Virus record (IMG/VR): IMGVR_UViG_2928716645_000002
Coordinates: 1 to 64,000 of that record
Direction: 5' to 3' (one strand)
DNA: 64,000 nt
Source of the DNA: a virus
Taxonomy: Duplodnaviria; Caudoviricetes
Shown: piece by piece, positions 4,366 through 26,436 of the stretch
Layout: each line of letters begins with the position of its first letter
Position numbering within the stretch: the first letter of the stretch is position 1
The notes under the pieces: generated by a model
Databases searched by the model: none
Seen by the model: the letters and a program-made list of their open reading frames with translations, nothing else
What the model was told of the DNA's origin: nothing
Made by a program: the position numbers and the translations under genes

Positions 4366-4442
4366 TGGCAGCGCCAGTCGGAATCCAACCGATCACCTCC
4401 GGGTCCACAACCCAGCGCTCTACCCCTTGAATTATGGCAGCT
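4366..4442 (-). tRNA. tRNA-His(GTG)-like, possibly degenerate
   Basis: CTGGG TT-GTG-GA CCCGG; T-loop TTGGATT; bulged acceptor. Confidence 0.55.
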
Positions 4443-6139: not shown

Positions 6140-6216
6140 TGGCGATCGCCGCCGGACTCGAACCGGCAACCTCCGCGGTAGGAATGCGGTGCTCTGTCCA
6201 GTTGAGCCAGGCGACC
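6140..6216 (-). tRNA. tRNA-Arg(CCT)
   Basis: CCGCA TT-CCT-AC CGCGG. Confidence 0.85.
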
Positions 6217-6824: not shown

Positions 6825-6900
6825 TGGCGCGCTCGGCAGGACTCGAACCCGCATGCGGCGGAGTAGAAATCCGCTGGCCGTCCAGTTGGCCCACGAGCGC
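6825..6900 (-). tRNA. tRNA-Arg(TCT)
   Basis: GCGGA TT-TCT-AC TCCGC. Confidence 0.85.
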
Positions 6901-7137: not shown

Positions 7138-8445
7138 TCAGTCCGCCTGCTCGAGCTGGTGGATGAACCGAAGCACCCCCTCCGAGAAGCCGTCGATTTG
7201 CGTCCAGCGGCCGTAACCGACGCCGTTCAGGTTGGAAGCGACGTTGATCATATAGGCGTGACGCGCGACCGGATCTGGCACGCGATCCGAGCTCTGCTCG
7301 TCGGTGATGACGATCAGCCGGTCGTGCTGGATCCGGTTAATATGGCTTACCGCCGCGCCGAGCGCCGTTCCGCCGTGCGGCTGAGACCGTACGATTGCGT
7401 CGACACCGGCCATGCCGCGCCGCGGTGGAACCTCGACGACTTGGTTGGAGAACGTGAAGAGACGCAGATCGGCGTTCACGACGGCGCCGAGCGCGGCCGC
7501 GGCATCGATCCTCTTCATGTCCGACTTGCCCGACATCGCCCAATCCATGGATCCGGAAACGTCGATCAGGACGACCGTCTTCCCGGCGAGCTTCGGCATC
7601 TCACCGATAGCCGCCAACAAGGCCTGATCGAGATGCGGCTCGAAGCGCGGAGCGGCCCGCGCCGCAGCCACGTAACGGAACGGGAAGACGCGTCCGGCAC
7701 CGCGCCGCGCCACGATCGCATCCCGCACCAACGCCTCGTCGACGCCGGCCTGCGCCATGTTACGCAGGTTGCGCAGCAAGGCCAGGTAGCCGAGCTTGTT
7801 CTCGCGGAGCAGGCGCTCGAAGGCCTCCTTCTTGTCAGCGCCGCCGGAGAGCGCGACCTCCCAGGTATCCGGCGTCATCAAGGTGCGGTCCCGGACGCGC
7901 TTGAACAACGCCGATTGCTCGTCATTCGCCGGTTTCGGACGAACCAGGCGCAGGACGTCGCGGAGCTTGATGGCACCGTCCCGGTCGTACTTGGCCAGGC
8001 GGTACTCGTCGAACTTCTGGAACGCCCGAGCCAGGCCGTTGCGCATCTGCGCCGGCACCATCTTGCGGCCTTTGCGCCACAGGATGGCGAGGAGTTCAGC
8101 CATCTCGTCCGCACGCTGAATGACTCGCTCGACGGTCTCGGCGACCAGTGGATTGCCGGCGCCGGTCTTCGACAGCACCTCAAGCAGGAGCAGCGGGACG
8201 TGACGCAGGTTGTGCACCTCCCTGGCCTCGATCGCGATCGCGGCCAGGATCTCAGGCTTCACCTCCGCCGCGGTCTCGACGATTCGATCGGAGATCGCCT
8301 TGCCGTCCTCATAGAACTCGCTCTCCCAAAGCAGGCAGGACATAACGGTCCGGCGGAGCTGCTGCTCGGCAGAGAGATGGCGCGCGGCCGGTCCGCCCTC
8401 GTGGGTGAAAACCGGCGCCGACTTGTGTGGGGTGTTGAGACGCAT
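7138..8445 (-). CDS. rsr: Ro60/TROVE-domain RNA-binding protein (TROVE + vWA)
   Basis: THEGGPA, FDEYRLAKY, LRDVLRLVRPKP, TWEVALS, ALLRNLRN; vWA MIDAS DVSGSM and VITDEQ; AAGGAGG SD. Confidence 0.92.
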   Translation of the reverse strand: MRLNTPHKSAPVFTHEGGPAARHLSAEQQLRRTVMSCLLWESEFYEDGKAISDRIVETAAEVKPEILAAIAIEAREVHNLRHVPLLLLEVLSKTGAGNPLVAETVERVIQRADEMAELLAILWRKGRKMVPAQMRNGLARAFQKFDEYRLAKYDRDGAIKLRDVLRLVRPKPANDEQSALFKRVRDRTLMTPDTWEVALSGGADKKEAFERLLRENKLGYLALLRNLRNMAQAGVDEALVRDAIVARRGAGRVFPFRYVAAARAAPRFEPHLDQALLAAIGEMPKLAGKTVVLIDVSGSMDWAMSGKSDMKRIDAAAALGAVVNADLRLFTFSNQVVEVPPRRGMAGVDAIVRSQPHGGTALGAAVSHINRIQHDRLIVITDEQSSDRVPDPVARHAYMINVASNLNGVGYGRWTQIDGFSEGVLRFIHQLEQAD

Positions 8446-8467
8446 GTCGTCCTCCTTCGATTTGGAA

Positions 8468-8577
8468 GTCGCCATGACGGGATTTGGCAAGCGGCGAGCG
8501 CGGGATATGGGCCGAAGCCCGCTCTTTCATGGCAAGAAGTATCCGCGATCTATCAGCGCAAGCCCCGTCATGGCGAC
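8468..8577 (-). ncRNA. Y RNA-like gene 1 (no tRNA-like module)
   Basis: 14-bp terminal stem GTCGCCATGACGGG/CCCGTCATGGCGAC; GCTG...CTTGC motif shared with the neighbouring RNAs. Confidence 0.65.
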
Positions 8578-8725: not shown

Positions 8726-8884
8726 GCGCCCCATTGCAGGACCGGGCAAGTATCGAAACCGGACACGGTAAGCGCTCTACCACTGAGCTATCGGGATTTC
8801 TCCCGAGTGGGATTCGAACCCACGACCTCTCGCTCCCAAAGCGAAGTAACCGATTTCTGCAGCGCCGATCCCGCAATGTGGCGC
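8726..8884 (-). ncRNA. YrlA-like Y RNA 3
   Basis: long terminal stem enclosing permuted tRNA domain: T-arm GTGGGTTCGAATCCCAC, hairpin TCGGGAGAAATCCCGA, D-arm GCTCAGTGGTAGAGC. Confidence 0.88.
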
Positions 8885-9032: not shown

Positions 9033-9111
9033 TGGTGCCCACGGCAAGAGTCGAACTTGCATGCTCCAGTTACGGTACTTGTGCTTCGTAGGCACAGCCG
9101 GTTACGTGGGC
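9033..9111 (-). tRNA. atypical tRNA-Arg(ACG) lacking a normal D-arm
   Basis: perfect acceptor, anticodon and T stems; 8 nt between acceptor and anticodon arm; 19-nt variable region. Confidence 0.65.
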
Positions 9112-9115
9112 GAAA

Positions 9116-9190
9116 TGGTACTGCCAGCGGGACTCGAACCCGCGTCAACCGGCTGAGAACCGGTCATCCTAACCGCTAGACGATGGCAGC
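9116..9190 (-). tRNA. tRNA-Glu(CTC)
   Basis: ACCGG TT-CTC-AG CCGGT. Confidence 0.88.
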
Positions 9191-9230
9191 AGATTTGACG
9201 GCCGGACAGATTTGCCCGACAATCGGCGAC

Positions 9231-9662
9231 ATGAAAACCTTCGCCTATGCCGCTGTTTTCGAGCCCGGCGATCGCCGCGGCATCGTGGTGACGTTCCCGG
9301 ATGTCCCGGAGGCAATCACGCAGGGCAAAGACGACGACGATGCGCGGGATCAAGCCGAGGAGGCGTTGGGCCTTGCCCTGCTCTCCTATCTCGAGCGCGG
9401 ATTGGACCTGCCAAAGCCGGCGGCGCGCGGCCGCGAGTTCGTCACTATCCACGTCGCGCCCGACATCGCCATCAAGCTGGCGGTGCTGCGAGCGTTCGCC
9501 GCTGCGGGCATATCGAAATCTGAGCTCGGCCGACGCATTGGCAAGGACGAGAAGGAGGTCCGGCGCATGCTGGATCCGTCCCATCCCACGAAGCTCGCGC
9601 CAATGGCTGAGGCCCTCCGCGCGCTCGGCAAGCGCCTGGTCGTTGGCGTCGACGACGCCTGA
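9231..9662 (+). CDS. hicB: HicB family antitoxin (HicB + HTH), orphan
   Basis: VTFPDVPEAITQG...AEEAL; C-terminal ISKSELGRRIG HTH. Confidence 0.85.
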   Translation: MKTFAYAAVFEPGDRRGIVVTFPDVPEAITQGKDDDDARDQAEEALGLALLSYLERGLDLPKPAARGREFVTIHVAPDIAIKLAVLRAFAAAGISKSELGRRIGKDEKEVRRMLDPSHPTKLAPMAEALRALGKRLVVGVDDA

Positions 9663-9878: not shown

Positions 9879-10817
9879 ATGACAGATTTACCTTCACCGC
9901 GGCCGTACCGAGTTTTGAGCCTGGATGGCGGCGGAGCCAAAGGGTTCTACACGCTTGGAGCTCTCAAGGAGATCGAGGCGGTCGCCGGCCGGCCTCTGTG
10001 TGAGACGTTCAATCTCATCTACGGCACGAGCACGGGGGCTATCATCGCGGCTCTTCTAGGTTTGGGGAGCCGGGTCGAGGAGATCGAATCTCTTTATCGG
10101 CTGCGAGTCGTCGAAGTAATGGGTGAGATCCTACCTCGTAGGAAAACGGCCGCATTGGAAGCACTTGCACAAGACGTCTTCGGGGAACGCCGCTTTGACG
10201 CTTTCAAGACCGACATGGGCATTGTCGGCACTCGCTGGGACGACGATCGGCCAATAATCTTCAAGACCAACGCGGGGCAAGCGTTCACTGGCGTCGGTTC
10301 GTTTGAGCCGGGCTTCGGCTGCACTATAGCCGACGCAGTCGTTGGGTCGTGCTCGGCCTATCCGTTCTTTCTTAAGAAAATGGTGACGACTGGTCGTGGC
10401 GATCGGATCGAAGTCAGAGATGGCGGCTTCGTCGCGAACAATCCTACGCTCTATGCCGTCGCCGATGCCGTGGAATCGCTCGGGCATGACCGCGAAAACC
10501 TTCGGGTCGTCAGTCTCGGCGTGGGCGAATATCCCGCGCCGACACTTCCGGCCACCAGCGCACGGAAATGGATCAGCAAATGGCCGACGGTAAAATTCTC
10601 GCAGAAACTGTTGGAGATCAACACGCAGTCGATGGAGCAGCTAAGCCGTGTGTTGTTTGGCGGTGTGCCCCTTATCCGTATCAACGCGAAGTACACACAG
10701 CCCGAGATGGCAACAGACATGCTTGAGGCAAACATGGAAAAACTGGCCAAGCTTTGGAGTCGTGGACGAGACTCAGCGCGAGAGTACGACGGGGAACTTA
10801 AACGCTTTTTGATTTAG
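9879..10817 (+). CDS. patatin-like phospholipase (CBASS effector, CapE/CapV-like)
   Basis: LDGGGAKG, GTSTG and DGG motifs; directly upstream of the CD-NTase. Confidence 0.88.
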   Translation: MTDLPSPRPYRVLSLDGGGAKGFYTLGALKEIEAVAGRPLCETFNLIYGTSTGAIIAALLGLGSRVEEIESLYRLRVVEVMGEILPRRKTAALEALAQDVFGERRFDAFKTDMGIVGTRWDDDRPIIFKTNAGQAFTGVGSFEPGFGCTIADAVVGSCSAYPFFLKKMVTTGRGDRIEVRDGGFVANNPTLYAVADAVESLGHDRENLRVVSLGVGEYPAPTLPATSARKWISKWPTVKFSQKLLEINTQSMEQLSRVLFGGVPLIRINAKYTQPEMATDMLEANMEKLAKLWSRGRDSAREYDGELKRFLI

Positions 10818-10828
10818 GAGAATTGGAC

Positions 10829-11719
10829 GTGGCAATTTCGGAAGCACAACTCGAAACTTGGAACAAGCTAGGCCCTACAGCGCAGTTCACCTCCACCTAC
10901 GAAGCACTGCGAGACGTTCTGAATGATTCCAGCTCACCATACTGGCCAAAGAGCTTCGAGATATTTCTGCAGGGCTCCTACAAGAACTCTACCAACGTTT
11001 ATGGAGACAGTGATGTAGATGTGGTGATCCGCCTGGATTCGATCTTCTACACTGACCTTTATTTCCTCAGCGAGGAAGAGAAACAGCGTTACAATTCTCA
11101 ACGTACGGAGGGGAACTATAGCCTCGAGGAATTTAAAACATCGGTCATTTCTTGGCTCACCAAAAAGTATGGCAACGACGTCCAACCTGGCAACAAAGCA
11201 GTCTTCATCAAAGGCAACGGCACCAGCCGTCGAGACGCCGACGTTCTTATCTGCGCAAAGTTACGTCGCTACTATAGCTTCCCCGAGTTCGGGCAACCAC
11301 ACTACGTCGATGGAATTTGCTTTTTCTTACCCAGCGGCATCCGGATCGAGAACTTCCCCGAGAAGCACGCCGAGAACTGCACGACAAAGCACCAGGACAC
11401 GCGGCAATGGTTCAAGCCAACTGTTCGCATCTTCAAAAATCTTCGCAACACGATGATCAAAAATAAGATCATCGAAGACGGGCTGGCTCCGTCCTATTTT
11501 ATCGAGGGAATGCTGTATAACGTTCCCCCAACCAAGTTCGGTGGCAGCGAACAGATGAACTTCAAGGACGTATTGAATTGGCTGCTATCAGCAGATCGCG
11601 ACAAATTTGTTTGCGCGAACGAACAATTTAAACTTCTTGGCGGCGCGCATGTCACATGGCCTGCAGCAAACTGCACTCAGTTCTTGAATGCTGTGAAGTC
11701 CTATAATGACGCAGCTTAG
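10829..11719 (+). CDS. CD-NTase, CdnE-like cyclic nucleotide synthase
   Basis: LQGSYKNSTNVYGDSDVDV, DADV, IENFP..H, FKPTVRIFKN, PSYFIEGMLYNVP; AGGAG SD before GTG. Confidence 0.85.
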   Translation: MAISEAQLETWNKLGPTAQFTSTYEALRDVLNDSSSPYWPKSFEIFLQGSYKNSTNVYGDSDVDVVIRLDSIFYTDLYFLSEEEKQRYNSQRTEGNYSLEEFKTSVISWLTKKYGNDVQPGNKAVFIKGNGTSRRDADVLICAKLRRYYSFPEFGQPHYVDGICFFLPSGIRIENFPEKHAENCTTKHQDTRQWFKPTVRIFKNLRNTMIKNKIIEDGLAPSYFIEGMLYNVPPTKFGGSEQMNFKDVLNWLLSADRDKFVCANEQFKLLGGAHVTWPAANCTQFLNAVKSYNDAA

Positions 11720-13180: not shown

Positions 13181-13258
13181 TGGTTGCGTGGCCCGGGAGT
13201 CGAACCCGGTATTTCCGGCTTATGAGGCCAGCGTGGTGATCCATTCCACTCGCCCGCC
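13181..13258 (-). tRNA. tRNA-Met(CAT), initiator-like
   Basis: CTGGC CT-CAT-AA GCCGG; unpaired 1:72; ...CGCAACCA end. Confidence 0.7.
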
Positions 13259-14624: not shown

Positions 14625-14713
14625 TGGTGAACGAGGCAGGATTCGAACCTGCGCGGGGCTCAAGGCCCGTGCGGTTAAGAGCCGCGTGCCGTCGACCGCT
14701 TGGCTACTCGTCC
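14625..14713 (-). tRNA. tRNA-Lys(CTT) with long variable arm
   Basis: CGCGG CT-CTT-AA CCGCA followed by GGGC-CTTGA-GCCC hairpin. Confidence 0.8.
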
Positions 14714-14715
14714 AT

Positions 14716-14806
14716 TGGTGAACCGGGAGGGACTCAAACCCCCGATGTGGCCGTGAGGCCAGCCGGATTAAAAGTCCGGGCCGTTCGTCGTTACGGTAAC
14801 CGGTCC
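14716..14806 (-). tRNA. tRNA-Lys(TTT) with long variable arm
   Basis: CCGGA CT-TTT-AA TCCGG followed by TGGCC-TCAC-GGCCA hairpin. Confidence 0.75.
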
Positions 14807-15674: not shown

Positions 15675-15749
15675 TGGTGCCCGCAGGAGGACTTGAGTCT
15701 CCGCGCGTCCGCCTACAATGCGGCTGCTCTCCATCTGAGCTATGCGGGC
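15675..15749 (-). tRNA. tRNA-Thr(TGT), aberrant T-arm
   Basis: GCCGC AT-TGT-AG GCGGA; T-loop region ACTCAAGT. Confidence 0.6.
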
Positions 15750-25740: not shown

Positions 25741-26436
25741 TTAGGTCTTGGTGACGCTCGAGACCGCGGCGTTGACATCCGGAACGGCGTCCGGCGCCAG
25801 GTTCAGACGCGCGATGATCTTCTGGGCGATGGCATCGGGGCCACCCATCCAGGAGGTCAGCCAGTCCGGCGAGTGATCGATGACGTACTGGAGAGCCTTG
25901 GCGAGCACGGCGTTGTGCACCTCGGCGGTGAGCGCCTTATCCTTGGTGGCATCCTTCACCATGTTGATGGCGTAATCGATGCCCTTCTGGAGCAACTGGT
26001 CGGCGCGGACCGACACCACGACGGCGTAGATCTGAGCCGGCAGCTTCCGGAGCAGCCAGGTCACGAACGCGAAGATCAGCGTGCCGATCGCCCCGGCCCA
26101 CTGCGCGATCGTGGCGCCATATGCCCAAGTCACCTTGGTGGTCTCGCTGGTCGCCTGCGCGACGGTCTCCGGCGCCGCGGCATCCGCCGCAAAGGCGACG
26201 TCGATCGCGAGCGAGGCGCCGACGAGCACGGCGAATACGAGCGCGAACGGCCGCAAACTCCGCGGCAGGACGATGGCAGCCAGCACCAGGCCGAGCAGAA
26301 CGGCAAACAGGGTTCCGGTCGGATCGAAGCCAGGCCCGGCGTCGGCGAAGAAGCTCGAGTTGAAGGAGCCTGCCAGCGCCAGGCTTGGCGCGAGCAGAAG
26401 CGGCACGGCAAAAGCCGCGCTGTAGAAGCGGTTCAT
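25741..26436 (-). CDS. membrane protein, holin candidate
   Basis: multiple TMs; directly after endolysin. Confidence 0.5.
   Translation of the reverse strand: MNRFYSAAFAVPLLLAPSLALAGSFNSSFFADAGPGFDPTGTLFAVLLGLVLAAIVLPRSLRPFALVFAVLVGASLAIDVAFAADAAAPETVAQATSETTKVTWAYGATIAQWAGAIGTLIFAFVTWLLRKLPAQIYAVVVSVRADQLLQKGIDYAINMVKDATKDKALTAEVHNAVLAKALQYVIDHSPDWLTSWMGGPDAIAQKIIARLNLAPDAVPDVNAAVSSVTKT

What the first reader, a model, noticed from the sequence alone, without database searches (positions are those of the whole stretch)
9033..9111. tRNA-Arg(ACG) with the D-arm apparently moved into the variable region
Seen: GCCCACG-TAACCGGC-[TGTGC CTACGAA GCACA]-AGTACCGTAACTGGAGCAT-[GCAAG TTCGACT CTTGC]-CGTGGGC-ACCA. 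Three stems are perfect but there is no D hairpin. The D-loop-like AACTGGA, also present in the D-loops of Arg tRNAs 6140 and 6825, lies 3' of the anticodon arm, and its CTGG could pair with the 5' CCGG. Inference: an alternative tRNA topology rather than a pseudogene.
Basis: partly seen in the sequence, partly recalled or inferred. Interest (0 to 1): 0.72.

Follow-up and report, generated by a model that had tools for sequence, protein, structure and literature searches.

The report
Rewired phage arginine tRNA
This is a conserved arginine tRNA gene of a Bradyrhizobium-type prophage in which the anticodon arm sits inside the D-arm rather than after it, a non-cloverleaf wiring shared by many phages, largely missed by one standard tRNA finder and not found described in the literature I searched.

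Summary
The D-loop motif AACUGGA lies 3' of the anticodon arm. It is not a pseudogene. Four Bradyrhizobium prophages carry it, and every stem substitution among them is compensatory. A model built only from distant relatives scores it at 62.6 bits, against 30 or less for ordinary tRNAs.

I collected 86 distinct relatives from phage and metagenome contigs. Of these, 85 carry Arg anticodons.

Instead the 5' connector pairs around the anticodon arm: C12-G39, G13-C38, G14-C37 and C11-G48. The stretch UAACUGGA is left as a bulged D-loop equivalent, and its purine covaries with the last nucleotide before the T stem, like the 15-48 Levitt pair.

Rewired and canonical Arg tRNAs carry complementary anticodons within phage arrays. 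A related Bradyrhizobium tRNA array holds a canonical tRNA-Arg(ACG) next to the same Glu(CUC) neighbour.

Charging and decoding are inferred, not shown.

This scan found the same architecture before in Felix O1-like phages. I found no paper describing it.

The parts
9105..9111 (-). acceptor stem, 5' strand (RNA positions 1-7)
   Evidence: Pairs perfectly with 9037-9043. A5-U71 changes to G-C in L002. All 7 pairs covary in the family.
9102..9104 (-). U8 A9 A10 junction nucleotides
   Evidence: U8 and A9 are invariant in 68 aligned members. Position 10 is A here and G in the main type, where it pairs with C48.
9098..9101 (-). C11 C12 G13 G14: one strand of the rebuilt D-stem-like helix. It pairs with G48, G39, C38 and C37.
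   Evidence: Family covariation at the equivalent pairs: 13-37 is GC72/AU9/CG4/UA1 with none broken; 11-47 is CG71/UA3/AU2/UG2; 14-36 is G-C whenever position 14 is G.
9097..9097 (-). C15, equivalent to position 26 or an extra anticodon-helix pair (with G34, or mismatched with A33)
   Evidence: In the main type 15-33 covaries: GU43, CG18, AU7, GC2. The register in this subtype is inferred.
9080..9096 (-). anticodon arm: 5-bp stem and loop CUACGAA; anticodon ACG at 9087-9089
   Evidence: Perfect stem. G17-C31 changes to C-G in L002. U33 and A37 are present.
9076..9079 (-). A33 G34 U35 A36 connector or bulge after the anticodon stem
   Evidence: U35 is A in L136. The length of this segment varies from 2 to 4 nt in the family.
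9073..9075 (-). C37 C38 G39: second strand of the rebuilt helix
   Evidence: See the covariation.
9065..9072 (-). U40 A41 A42 C43 U44 G45 G46 A47: bulged D-loop equivalent (A14 R15 N16 N17 G18 G19 A20)
   Evidence: Positions 43 and 44 vary freely while A41, G45, G46 and A47 are invariant. R42 covaries with the last nucleotide before the T stem: AU75, GC9, 2 exceptions. The same heptamer is the D-loop of the two canonical Arg tRNAs in the window.
9061..9064 (-). G48 C49 A50 U51: G48 pairs with C11; U51 is the Y48 equivalent that pairs with A42
   Evidence: This segment is 5 nt shorter than in the main type.
9044..9060 (-). T arm: 5-bp stem and loop UUCGACU
   Evidence: Perfect stem. A55-U65 changes to G-C in relatives, and T-loop G60 changes to A (purine kept) in L136.
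9033..9043 (-). acceptor 3' strand, discriminator A76 and encoded CCA
   Evidence: The discriminator is A, U or G among the four close relatives.

Best explanation
The element is a working tRNA-Arg(ACG) gene of a non-cloverleaf class. The acceptor, anticodon and T arms are standard, but the anticodon arm is nested inside the D-arm. The 5' connector (C11-G14) forms a short helix with two segments on the far side of the anticodon arm: C37-G39 and G48. This helix is expected to stack on the anticodon stem, as a D-stem does. The intervening UAACUGGA bulges out as a D-loop equivalent. It keeps the nucleotides that normally form U8-A14, the 15-48 Levitt pair and the G18/G19 contacts with the T-loop, plus the A20 that ArgRS reads. 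The RNA would be cut out of the polycistronic tRNA transcript, deaminated at A34, charged by the host ArgRS, and used to read CGU, CGC and CGA during phage gene expression. Shown here: the gene, its conservation, the secondary structure by covariation, and its place in Arg isoacceptor sets. Inferred: the tertiary contacts, processing, charging and decoding, and the reason phages prefer this wiring.
For: (1) In the four Bradyrhizobium prophage copies, 6 of the 9 variable columns form three compensatory pairs, one in each classical stem. Both connectors are otherwise invariant.
(2) Model R2, built only from 56 main-type relatives, scores the window element at 62.6 bits. Canonical tRNAs score 30 or less.
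(3) An ungapped alignment of 56 sequences gives 13-37 as GC50/AU6 with none unpaired, and 41-55 as AU48/GC6.
(4) In 86 distinct sequences, 13-37 shows four pair types with none broken. 10-48 and 11-47 each show four standard pair types (three Watson-Crick types and a G-U wobble at 11-47).
(5) 85 of the 86 carry Arg anticodons: ACG 42, UCG 21, UCU 13, CCU 5, GCG 4.
(6) Within phage tRNA arrays, rewired and canonical Arg tRNAs carry different anticodons, with one overlap in 16 loci. Some arrays hold four rewired Arg isoacceptors and no canonical one. The window has canonical CCU, UCU and CCG plus the rewired ACG.
(7) The L002 copy shares its first 9 and last 28 nt exactly with a canonical tRNA-Arg(ACG) next to the same tRNA-Glu(CUC) neighbour in another Bradyrhizobium genome.
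(8) CGU, CGC and CGA make up 71% of Arg codons in the window's long ORFs.
(9) The element has tRNA-like spacing and an encoded CCA inside the array.
Against: There is no direct evidence of transcription, processing or aminoacylation. The RNA-run look-up gave only one low-depth metatranscriptome contig of a relative, with foreign flanks. Nearest-neighbour energies do not favour the proposed helix: -24.7 kcal/mol against -24.4, -24.1 and an MFE of -25.7 for the alternatives. RNAalifold prefers a local hairpin. In this short subtype, A10 faces C49 and C15 faces A33, so two pairs seen in the main type are mismatched. Pair 14-36 is non-standard in 38 of 86 sequences. The A4 alignment was fitted to the model, which favours the model's structure. 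The element sits about 540 nt upstream of a Ro60 gene with Y-RNA-like elements, so a non-translational role cannot be excluded.
Confidence: 0.75

Rival explanations
1. It is a tRNA-like decoy or mimic that is not used in translation. It might bait a host nuclease that attacks tRNA-Arg, or serve as a ligand of the neighbouring Ro60 system.
For: The core is non-canonical. A Ro60/TROVE gene lies at 7138-8490(-), with tRNA-like partial hits at 8799-8862 just downstream. Phage T5 is annotated with several stable tRNA-like RNAs of unknown function.
Against: The anticodons are confined to Arg and complement the canonical Arg tRNAs of the same arrays. A canonical ortholog sits at the same array position. 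The 7/5 acceptor/T geometry, U33, purine 37, the T-loop and the A20 equivalent are all retained. The family occurs in many phage loci where no Ro60 gene was seen nearby; these loci were not checked systematically.
Confidence: 0.12
2. It is a D-armless tRNA with a short extra hairpin. C37-G39 pairs locally with U44-G46 (loop UAAC) and the 5' connector stays single-stranded. This fold could also exist as an alternative conformer.
For: RNAalifold chooses this fold. About 90% of cells are compatible with it. Its energy is similar to the others.
Against: Nearly all changes are one-sided, with one two-sided change and 25 broken cells. It does not explain the perfect 13-37 covariation or the 14-36 G-C, U-A and C-G pairs. 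It would bury the invariant GG.
Confidence: 0.08
3. One reading: the 5' CCGG pairs with CUGG of the displaced D-loop motif.
For: Four pairs are possible in this sequence. C11-G46 and C12-G45 equivalents are invariant in the family. Its energy is -24.1 kcal/mol.
Against: The informative pairs fail: 14-42 is unpaired in 42 of 86 and 13-43 in 10 of 86. In L195 and L206 the G14-C pair becomes G.A. It leaves the invariant CGUAR and its covariation with the connector unexplained.
Confidence: 0.04
4. It is a decaying pseudogene left by a rearrangement inside a tRNA-Arg gene.
For: Standard finders miss it. A truly decayed copy exists in another Bradyrhizobium genome (L167).
Against: The stems show compensatory evolution and the connectors are invariant. 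There are 86 distinct relatives across very different phages.
Confidence: 0.01

Closest known systems
Canonical bacterial and phage tRNA-Arg(ACG) (Rfam RF00005), for example the gene at L166:1501-1575(-) in a Bradyrhizobium tRNA array
   Same: The acceptor stem, discriminator, T arm and CCA are identical to the L002 copy. The anticodon loop CUACGAA is the same. The upstream neighbour tRNA-Glu(CUC) is the same. The D-loop motif (A14 R15 .. G18 G19 A20) and a Y48 partner are present.
   Different: There is no D hairpin between positions 9 and 26. The D-stem-like helix is made of distant segments that enclose the anticodon arm. The D-loop equivalent lies 3' of the anticodon arm, so the junction is three-way rather than four-way.
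D-armless mitochondrial tRNAs of animals, for example mt-tRNA-Ser(AGY/UCU) (review PMC7609411)
   Same: There is no D hairpin. The connectors on both sides of the anticodon arm are thought to extend the anticodon helix so that the overall length is kept.
   Different: The mitochondrial forms have lost the G18/G19 and T-loop elbow nucleotides and are flexible. This family keeps them all and keeps a standard T arm. It is encoded by phages of bacteria and is limited to arginine. That review does not mention phages at all.
Unannotated tRNA-Arg(UCU)-like gene of Salmonella phage Felix O1 (AF320576 25951-26029), noted earlier in this scan
   Same: It has the same layout, a short 3' connector ending in AU, Arg identity and an encoded CCA. 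R2 scores it at 34.8 bits. Read by eye, its connector CUC pairs with GAG just before UAAGUGG.
   Different: The anticodon is UCU, the helix register is shifted by one nucleotide, the post-anticodon bulge is longer, and the host is different.
Permuted and split tRNA genes (for example Cyanidioschyzon merolae, PMC3728597)
   Same: The order of tRNA segments in the gene departs from the standard order.
   Different: In those cases processing restores a normal cloverleaf. Here nothing suggests cutting and rejoining, and the mature RNA itself would have the new topology.

Membership tests
tRNA (Rfam RF00005, canonical cloverleaf) | 7-bp acceptor stem, discriminator, 3' CCA | tested here: met
   all 7 pairs covary.
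tRNA (Rfam RF00005, canonical cloverleaf) | 5-bp anticodon stem and 7-nt loop with U33 and purine 37 | tested here: met
   Loop CUACGAA; the stem covaries.
tRNA (Rfam RF00005, canonical cloverleaf) | 5-bp T stem with a UUCRANY loop | tested here: met
tRNA (Rfam RF00005, canonical cloverleaf) | D-arm hairpin between positions 9 and 26 | tested here: not met
   Only 8 nt separate the acceptor and anticodon stems. ARAGORN finds no gene.
tRNA (Rfam RF00005, canonical cloverleaf) | Score at or above the Rfam gathering threshold (29 bits) | tested here: inconclusive
   34.4 bits when scored directly. No hit in the window-wide scan. 23.2 bits with a different alignment in a short scan.
Rewired phage tRNA-Arg family (defined here, model R2; not a published family) | Connector U-A-R-Y-C-R-R-N, core CGUAR-NN-GGAGC, and helices 10-11/47-48 and 12-14/36-38 around the anticodon arm | tested here: met
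   62.6 bits, E 4e-17 with R2, which was built without it. The core 14-mer is identical to the commonest main-type core. The 3' connector is 5 nt shorter, and A10 faces C49.
Rewired phage tRNA-Arg family (defined here, model R2; not a published family) | Arg anticodon that complements the canonical Arg tRNAs of the same array | tested here: met
   ACG here; the canonical ones are CCU, UCU and CCG. The same pattern holds in 15 of 16 other loci.
D-armless mitochondrial-type tRNA | Loss of the D-loop/T-loop elbow nucleotides, often with a reduced T arm | tested here: not met
   The GG, the A14/R15 equivalents and a standard T loop are invariant.
Functional tRNA-Arg (substrate of ArgRS) | C35, G36 or U36, and A20 presented to ArgRS; aminoacylation with Arg | not testable with these tools
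   C35, G36 and an A directly after GG are present in the sequence. Charging needs an experiment.

The most novel reading that the evidence does not exclude
Phages maintain a separate, shape-altered class of arginine tRNAs as a counter-defence. Host ArgRS, EF-Tu and the ribosome would still accept them. Nucleases that deplete normal tRNA-Arg by recognising the canonical D-arm and elbow would not see them, whether those nucleases come from host defence systems or from the phage's own host shut-off. That would make this the first natural non-organellar tRNA topology other than the cloverleaf, and one shaped by an arms race.
Probability: 0.22. Interest if true: 0.93.

Novelty: new variant of a known kind. 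Interest (0 to 1): 0.8.

Why it matters
Outside animal mitochondria, the cloverleaf with four side-by-side arms is treated as universal. Here covariation supports a different wiring, with the anticodon arm nested in the D-arm. It occurs across unrelated phages: Bradyrhizobium prophages, T5-like Vibrio phages, Felix O1 and contigs of up to 424 kb. It is confined to arginine.

If the RNA is charged and decodes, three things follow. First, it shows how much of the tRNA core can be rewired while ArgRS, EF-Tu and ribosome function are kept. Second, ARAGORN missed or misread most members tested (a correct anticodon for 4 of 86) and about 289 Vibrio phage records leave it unannotated, so phage tRNA complements are probably under-counted in annotations. 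Third, it offers a natural scaffold for orthogonal tRNA design.

It also gives a concrete way to test whether phage tRNAs evolve structural escape from tRNA-targeting immunity. A canonical and a rewired gene at the same array position form a natural matched pair for that test.

Tried and rejected
- ARAGORN with -mt, -ps, -D and -i options found nothing.
- An Rfam scan of the short stretch gave an alternative 23.2-bit alignment that uses GCCUACG in the anticodon loop as an acceptor strand. I rejected it because the full-length reading scores higher (34.4 bits) and is the conserved one.
- BLAST of the locus against the phage collection found only Vibrio phage matches to the neighbouring tRNA-Glu. 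The structural-gene region has no near match there.
- One viral scan was wasted by an off-by-one spacing error and returned only chance coding hits.
- Model S alone (connector CGG with CCG) first looked wrong for the main type, whose connector reads CCGA. It was rescued once the register was set by covariation.
- Mutual information over all column pairs gave no further convincing pairs beyond 13-37, 15-33 and 41-55.
- Thermodynamics cannot decide between the wirings.
- A search of 151 Bradyrhizobium species genomes with R1 found the element only in the genome already known, plus a canonical ortholog and a decayed copy.
- RNA evidence was not obtained. Of 17 listed runs, none holds more than 12% of the sampled words. 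Two of the four laid showed nothing. One contig (X3) carries an identical element in another flank and may be DNA. One rhizosphere metatranscriptome contig (X14, depth 2) carries a relative with 7 differences and foreign flanks. This gives no support either way.
- Four literature searches and a look through the 2020 review of non-canonical tRNAs turned up no description of this architecture. The library lacks most subscription journals.
- Phage T5 gave only a 32.8-bit hit inside its RNAX region, which I did not pursue.

Full report
**Observation**

- It has a 7-bp acceptor stem, then 8 nt (UAACCGGC), then a 5-bp anticodon stem with loop CUACGAA (anticodon ACG).
- A 19-nt region containing AACUGGA follows, then a 5-bp T stem with loop UUCGACU, the acceptor 3' strand, discriminator A and CCA.
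- It lies in an array of about 35 minus-strand tRNA genes, 4 nt after tRNA-Glu(CUC) and 5 nt before tRNA-Pro(UGG).
- AACUGGA is also the D-loop (A14-A20) of the two canonical Arg tRNAs at 6140-6216 and 6825-6900.
- ARAGORN does not call the element under any option.
- Rfam's tRNA model gives 34.4 bits when the candidate is scored directly. The element is lost to filters in a window scan.

The window is the first 64 kb of a 108-kb IMG/VR provirus record. Its terminase and portal genes are 68-81% identical at the DNA level to prophages in Bradyrhizobium sp. C9 and B. embrapense.

**Close relatives**

Pattern scans found the same layout in three further proviruses. These are prophages of Bradyrhizobium sp. 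Ai1a-2, Bradyrhizobium sp. C9 and B. embrapense SEMIA 6208, with one copy per genome.

Nine columns vary in the four-way alignment.
- Six of them form three compensatory pairs, one each in the acceptor, anticodon and T stems.
- One keeps the T-loop purine.
- One is the discriminator.
- One is U35/A35.
- Both connectors are otherwise invariant.

This is the signature of a structured RNA under selection, not of a pseudogene.

**A canonical counterpart**

A model of the four sequences (R1) was run over 151 Bradyrhizobium species genomes. It picked up a canonical tRNA-Arg(ACG) in another tRNA array (L166) and a decayed copy lacking the anticodon arm (L167).

The canonical gene shares its first 9 and last 28 nt exactly with the rewired L002 copy. 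It sits directly after a tRNA-Glu(CUC) that is 69/75 identical to the window's. The same array position therefore holds either a normal or a rewired tRNA-Arg(ACG), and only the core differs.

**A large family**

A 14-mer from the displaced motif turned up the same layout in unrelated large phage contigs. Further scans left different parts free and gave 68 distinct sequences. One of these was a metagenome scan in which the connector and both candidate partners were unconstrained.

A covariance model built from 56 equal-length members (R2) then found more copies in the same loci. The total came to 86 distinct sequences.
- The anticodons are ACG 42, UCG 21, UCU 13, CCU 5, GCG 4 and CUU 1.
- R2 contains no Bradyrhizobium-type sequence, yet it scores the window element at 62.6 bits, against 30 or less for ordinary tRNAs.
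- About 289 Vibrio phage records carry a member with no annotation under it. One is phage 234P1 (Demerecviridae, host V. crassostreae), where it fills a gap in the annotated tRNA array.
- Felix O1 has an unannotated relative with anticodon UCU at 25951-26029.
- ARAGORN overlaps 19 of the 86 members and reports the right anticodon for only 4.

**Wiring**

Three pairings for the connectors were compared. Numbering below is that of the 80-nt main type.

*Local hairpin (36-38 with 43-45).* RNAalifold prefers this fold. Almost all its changes are one-sided, and it has 25 broken cells.

*Third wiring (connector paired around the anticodon arm).* This one shows genuine two-sided covariation.
- 13-37 is GC50/AU6 with none unpaired in the ungapped alignment. 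It is GC72/AU9/CG4/UA1 with none broken in all 86.
- 14-36 is G-C whenever position 14 is G, and also occurs as A-U, U-A and C-G.
- 10-48 is GC67/AU5/CG1/UA1.
- 11-47 is CG71/UA3/AU2/UG2.
- 15-33 extends the anticodon helix (GU, CG, AU, GC).
- The A-U, C-G and U-A variants of 13-37 occur in members with different anticodons and different stems, so they are not a single inherited event.

The connector 10-15 is therefore one continuous strand of a helix. Its other strand is split into 47-48 and 36-38, plus 33. An 8-nt bulge (U A R N N G G A) lies between the two pieces. In that bulge the two N positions vary freely, as positions 16 and 17 of a D-loop do. The purine covaries with the last nucleotide before the T stem (AU75, GC9, 2 exceptions). 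This is the pattern and topology of the 15-48 Levitt pair.

Nearest-neighbour energies cannot separate the three wirings for the window sequence. The case rests on covariation. One caveat: the 86-sequence alignment was fitted to the model. The 56-sequence alignment has no gaps and gives the same answer.

**The window's element**

In its own numbering the pairs are C11-G48, C12-G39, G13-C38 and G14-C37, with C15 facing G34 or A33. U40-A47 is the D-loop equivalent, and A42 pairs with U51.

This subtype has a 2-nt rather than a 7-nt connector before the T stem, and A10 faces C49. Five members have this short connector with A10 facing C49: the four prophages and L201. L177:7349 (anticodon CCU) is a looser relative in which A faces A at that position. 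The last four nucleotides, GCAU, match positions 45-48 of the canonical Arg tRNA at 6825-6900.

**Function**

Several observations argue that this is a decoding tRNA and not a mimic.
- The acceptor/T geometry, U33, A37 and the T-loop are intact, and an A follows GG where ArgRS reads A20 (established knowledge of Arg identity).
- The family is restricted to Arg anticodons.
- In 16 arrays examined, rewired and canonical Arg tRNAs overlap in anticodon only once. Some arrays have four rewired Arg isoacceptors and no canonical one.
- The window has canonical CCU, UCU and CCG, plus this ACG.
- CGU, CGC and CGA make up 71% of Arg codons in the window's long ORFs.
- A canonical gene occupies the same array position in a relative.

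None of this shows processing or charging, and the public RNA data gave nothing usable.

Why phages keep this wiring is unknown. Phage tRNAs are known to counter tRNA-targeting defences; papers listed report Septu cleaving tRNA-Tyr and Cas12a3 cleaving tRNA tails. This array also carries a Ro60 gene. Escape from a nuclease is therefore an attractive but untested idea.

**Comparison and novelty**

The nearest known things are ordinary tRNA-Arg and the D-armless mitochondrial tRNAs. The element fails the defining D-hairpin feature of ordinary tRNA-Arg. In the mitochondrial forms the connectors are thought to lengthen the anticodon helix, but the elbow nucleotides kept here are lost there.

A 2020 review of natural non-canonical tRNAs does not mention phages, and four full-text searches found no description.

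Earlier agents of this scan reported the same architecture in Felix O1-like phages. I reached the wiring before reading those notes, and I confirmed the Felix O1 copy myself.

New in this report:
- the temperate Bradyrhizobium subtype
- the canonical counterpart next to the same tRNA-Glu(CUC) neighbour
- the covariation counts for three competing wirings
- the anticodon complementarity within arrays

Noticed in passing
window 9879-11719 (+): A patatin-like phospholipase (PF01734, E 3e-24) is followed by a weak SMODS/nucleotidyltransferase protein. The pair looks like a CBASS-type effector and cyclase, and it is inserted in the middle of the phage tRNA array on the opposite strand.
   Followed up: no
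window 7138-8490 (-) and 8799-8862 (-): A Ro60 ortholog (TROVE domain plus vWA) lies just downstream of the tRNAs. A sub-threshold tRNA-model hit (26.3 bits) with a T arm and a UUUGGGA loop lies between them.
   Followed up: partly
window 14625-14713 and 14716-14806 (-): Both tRNA-Lys genes (CUU, UUU) are 89 and 91 nt long by ARAGORN. That is class-II length, which is unusual for Lys.
   Followed up: no
window 13185-13257, 15678-15749, 4369-4441 (-): The Rfam tRNA model finds three further tRNA-like genes that ARAGORN misses. They are a third CAU tRNA, a UGU (Thr) tRNA with an odd T loop, and a 28.7-bit His-like element.
   Followed up: partly
window 9183-9662 (+): An ORF with a HicB-like antitoxin domain (PF15919, E 3.5e-6) overlaps the tRNA-Glu gene on the opposite strand.
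   Followed up: no
L177:11003-11080 (-): This member of the rewired family (45.8 bits) has an anticodon loop that reads CUU (Lys). It is the only non-Arg case among the 86.
   Followed up: partly
L238 (8.3 kb metagenome contig), also L261: One phage array carries four rewired Arg tRNAs (ACG, UCU, CCU, UCG) and no canonical Arg tRNA among 15 ARAGORN calls.
   Followed up: partly
L167:29-104 (+), a Bradyrhizobium genome: A decayed copy of the rewired gene keeps the displaced motif and T stem but lacks the anticodon arm and has a degenerate T loop.
   Followed up: no
L295 (phage T5, AY543070 41432-41503): R2 gives a 32.8-bit hit inside the annotated 'RNAX stable RNA of unknown function', next to T5 tRNA-Arg. 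T5 also has several annotated tRNA-like stable RNAs.
   Followed up: no
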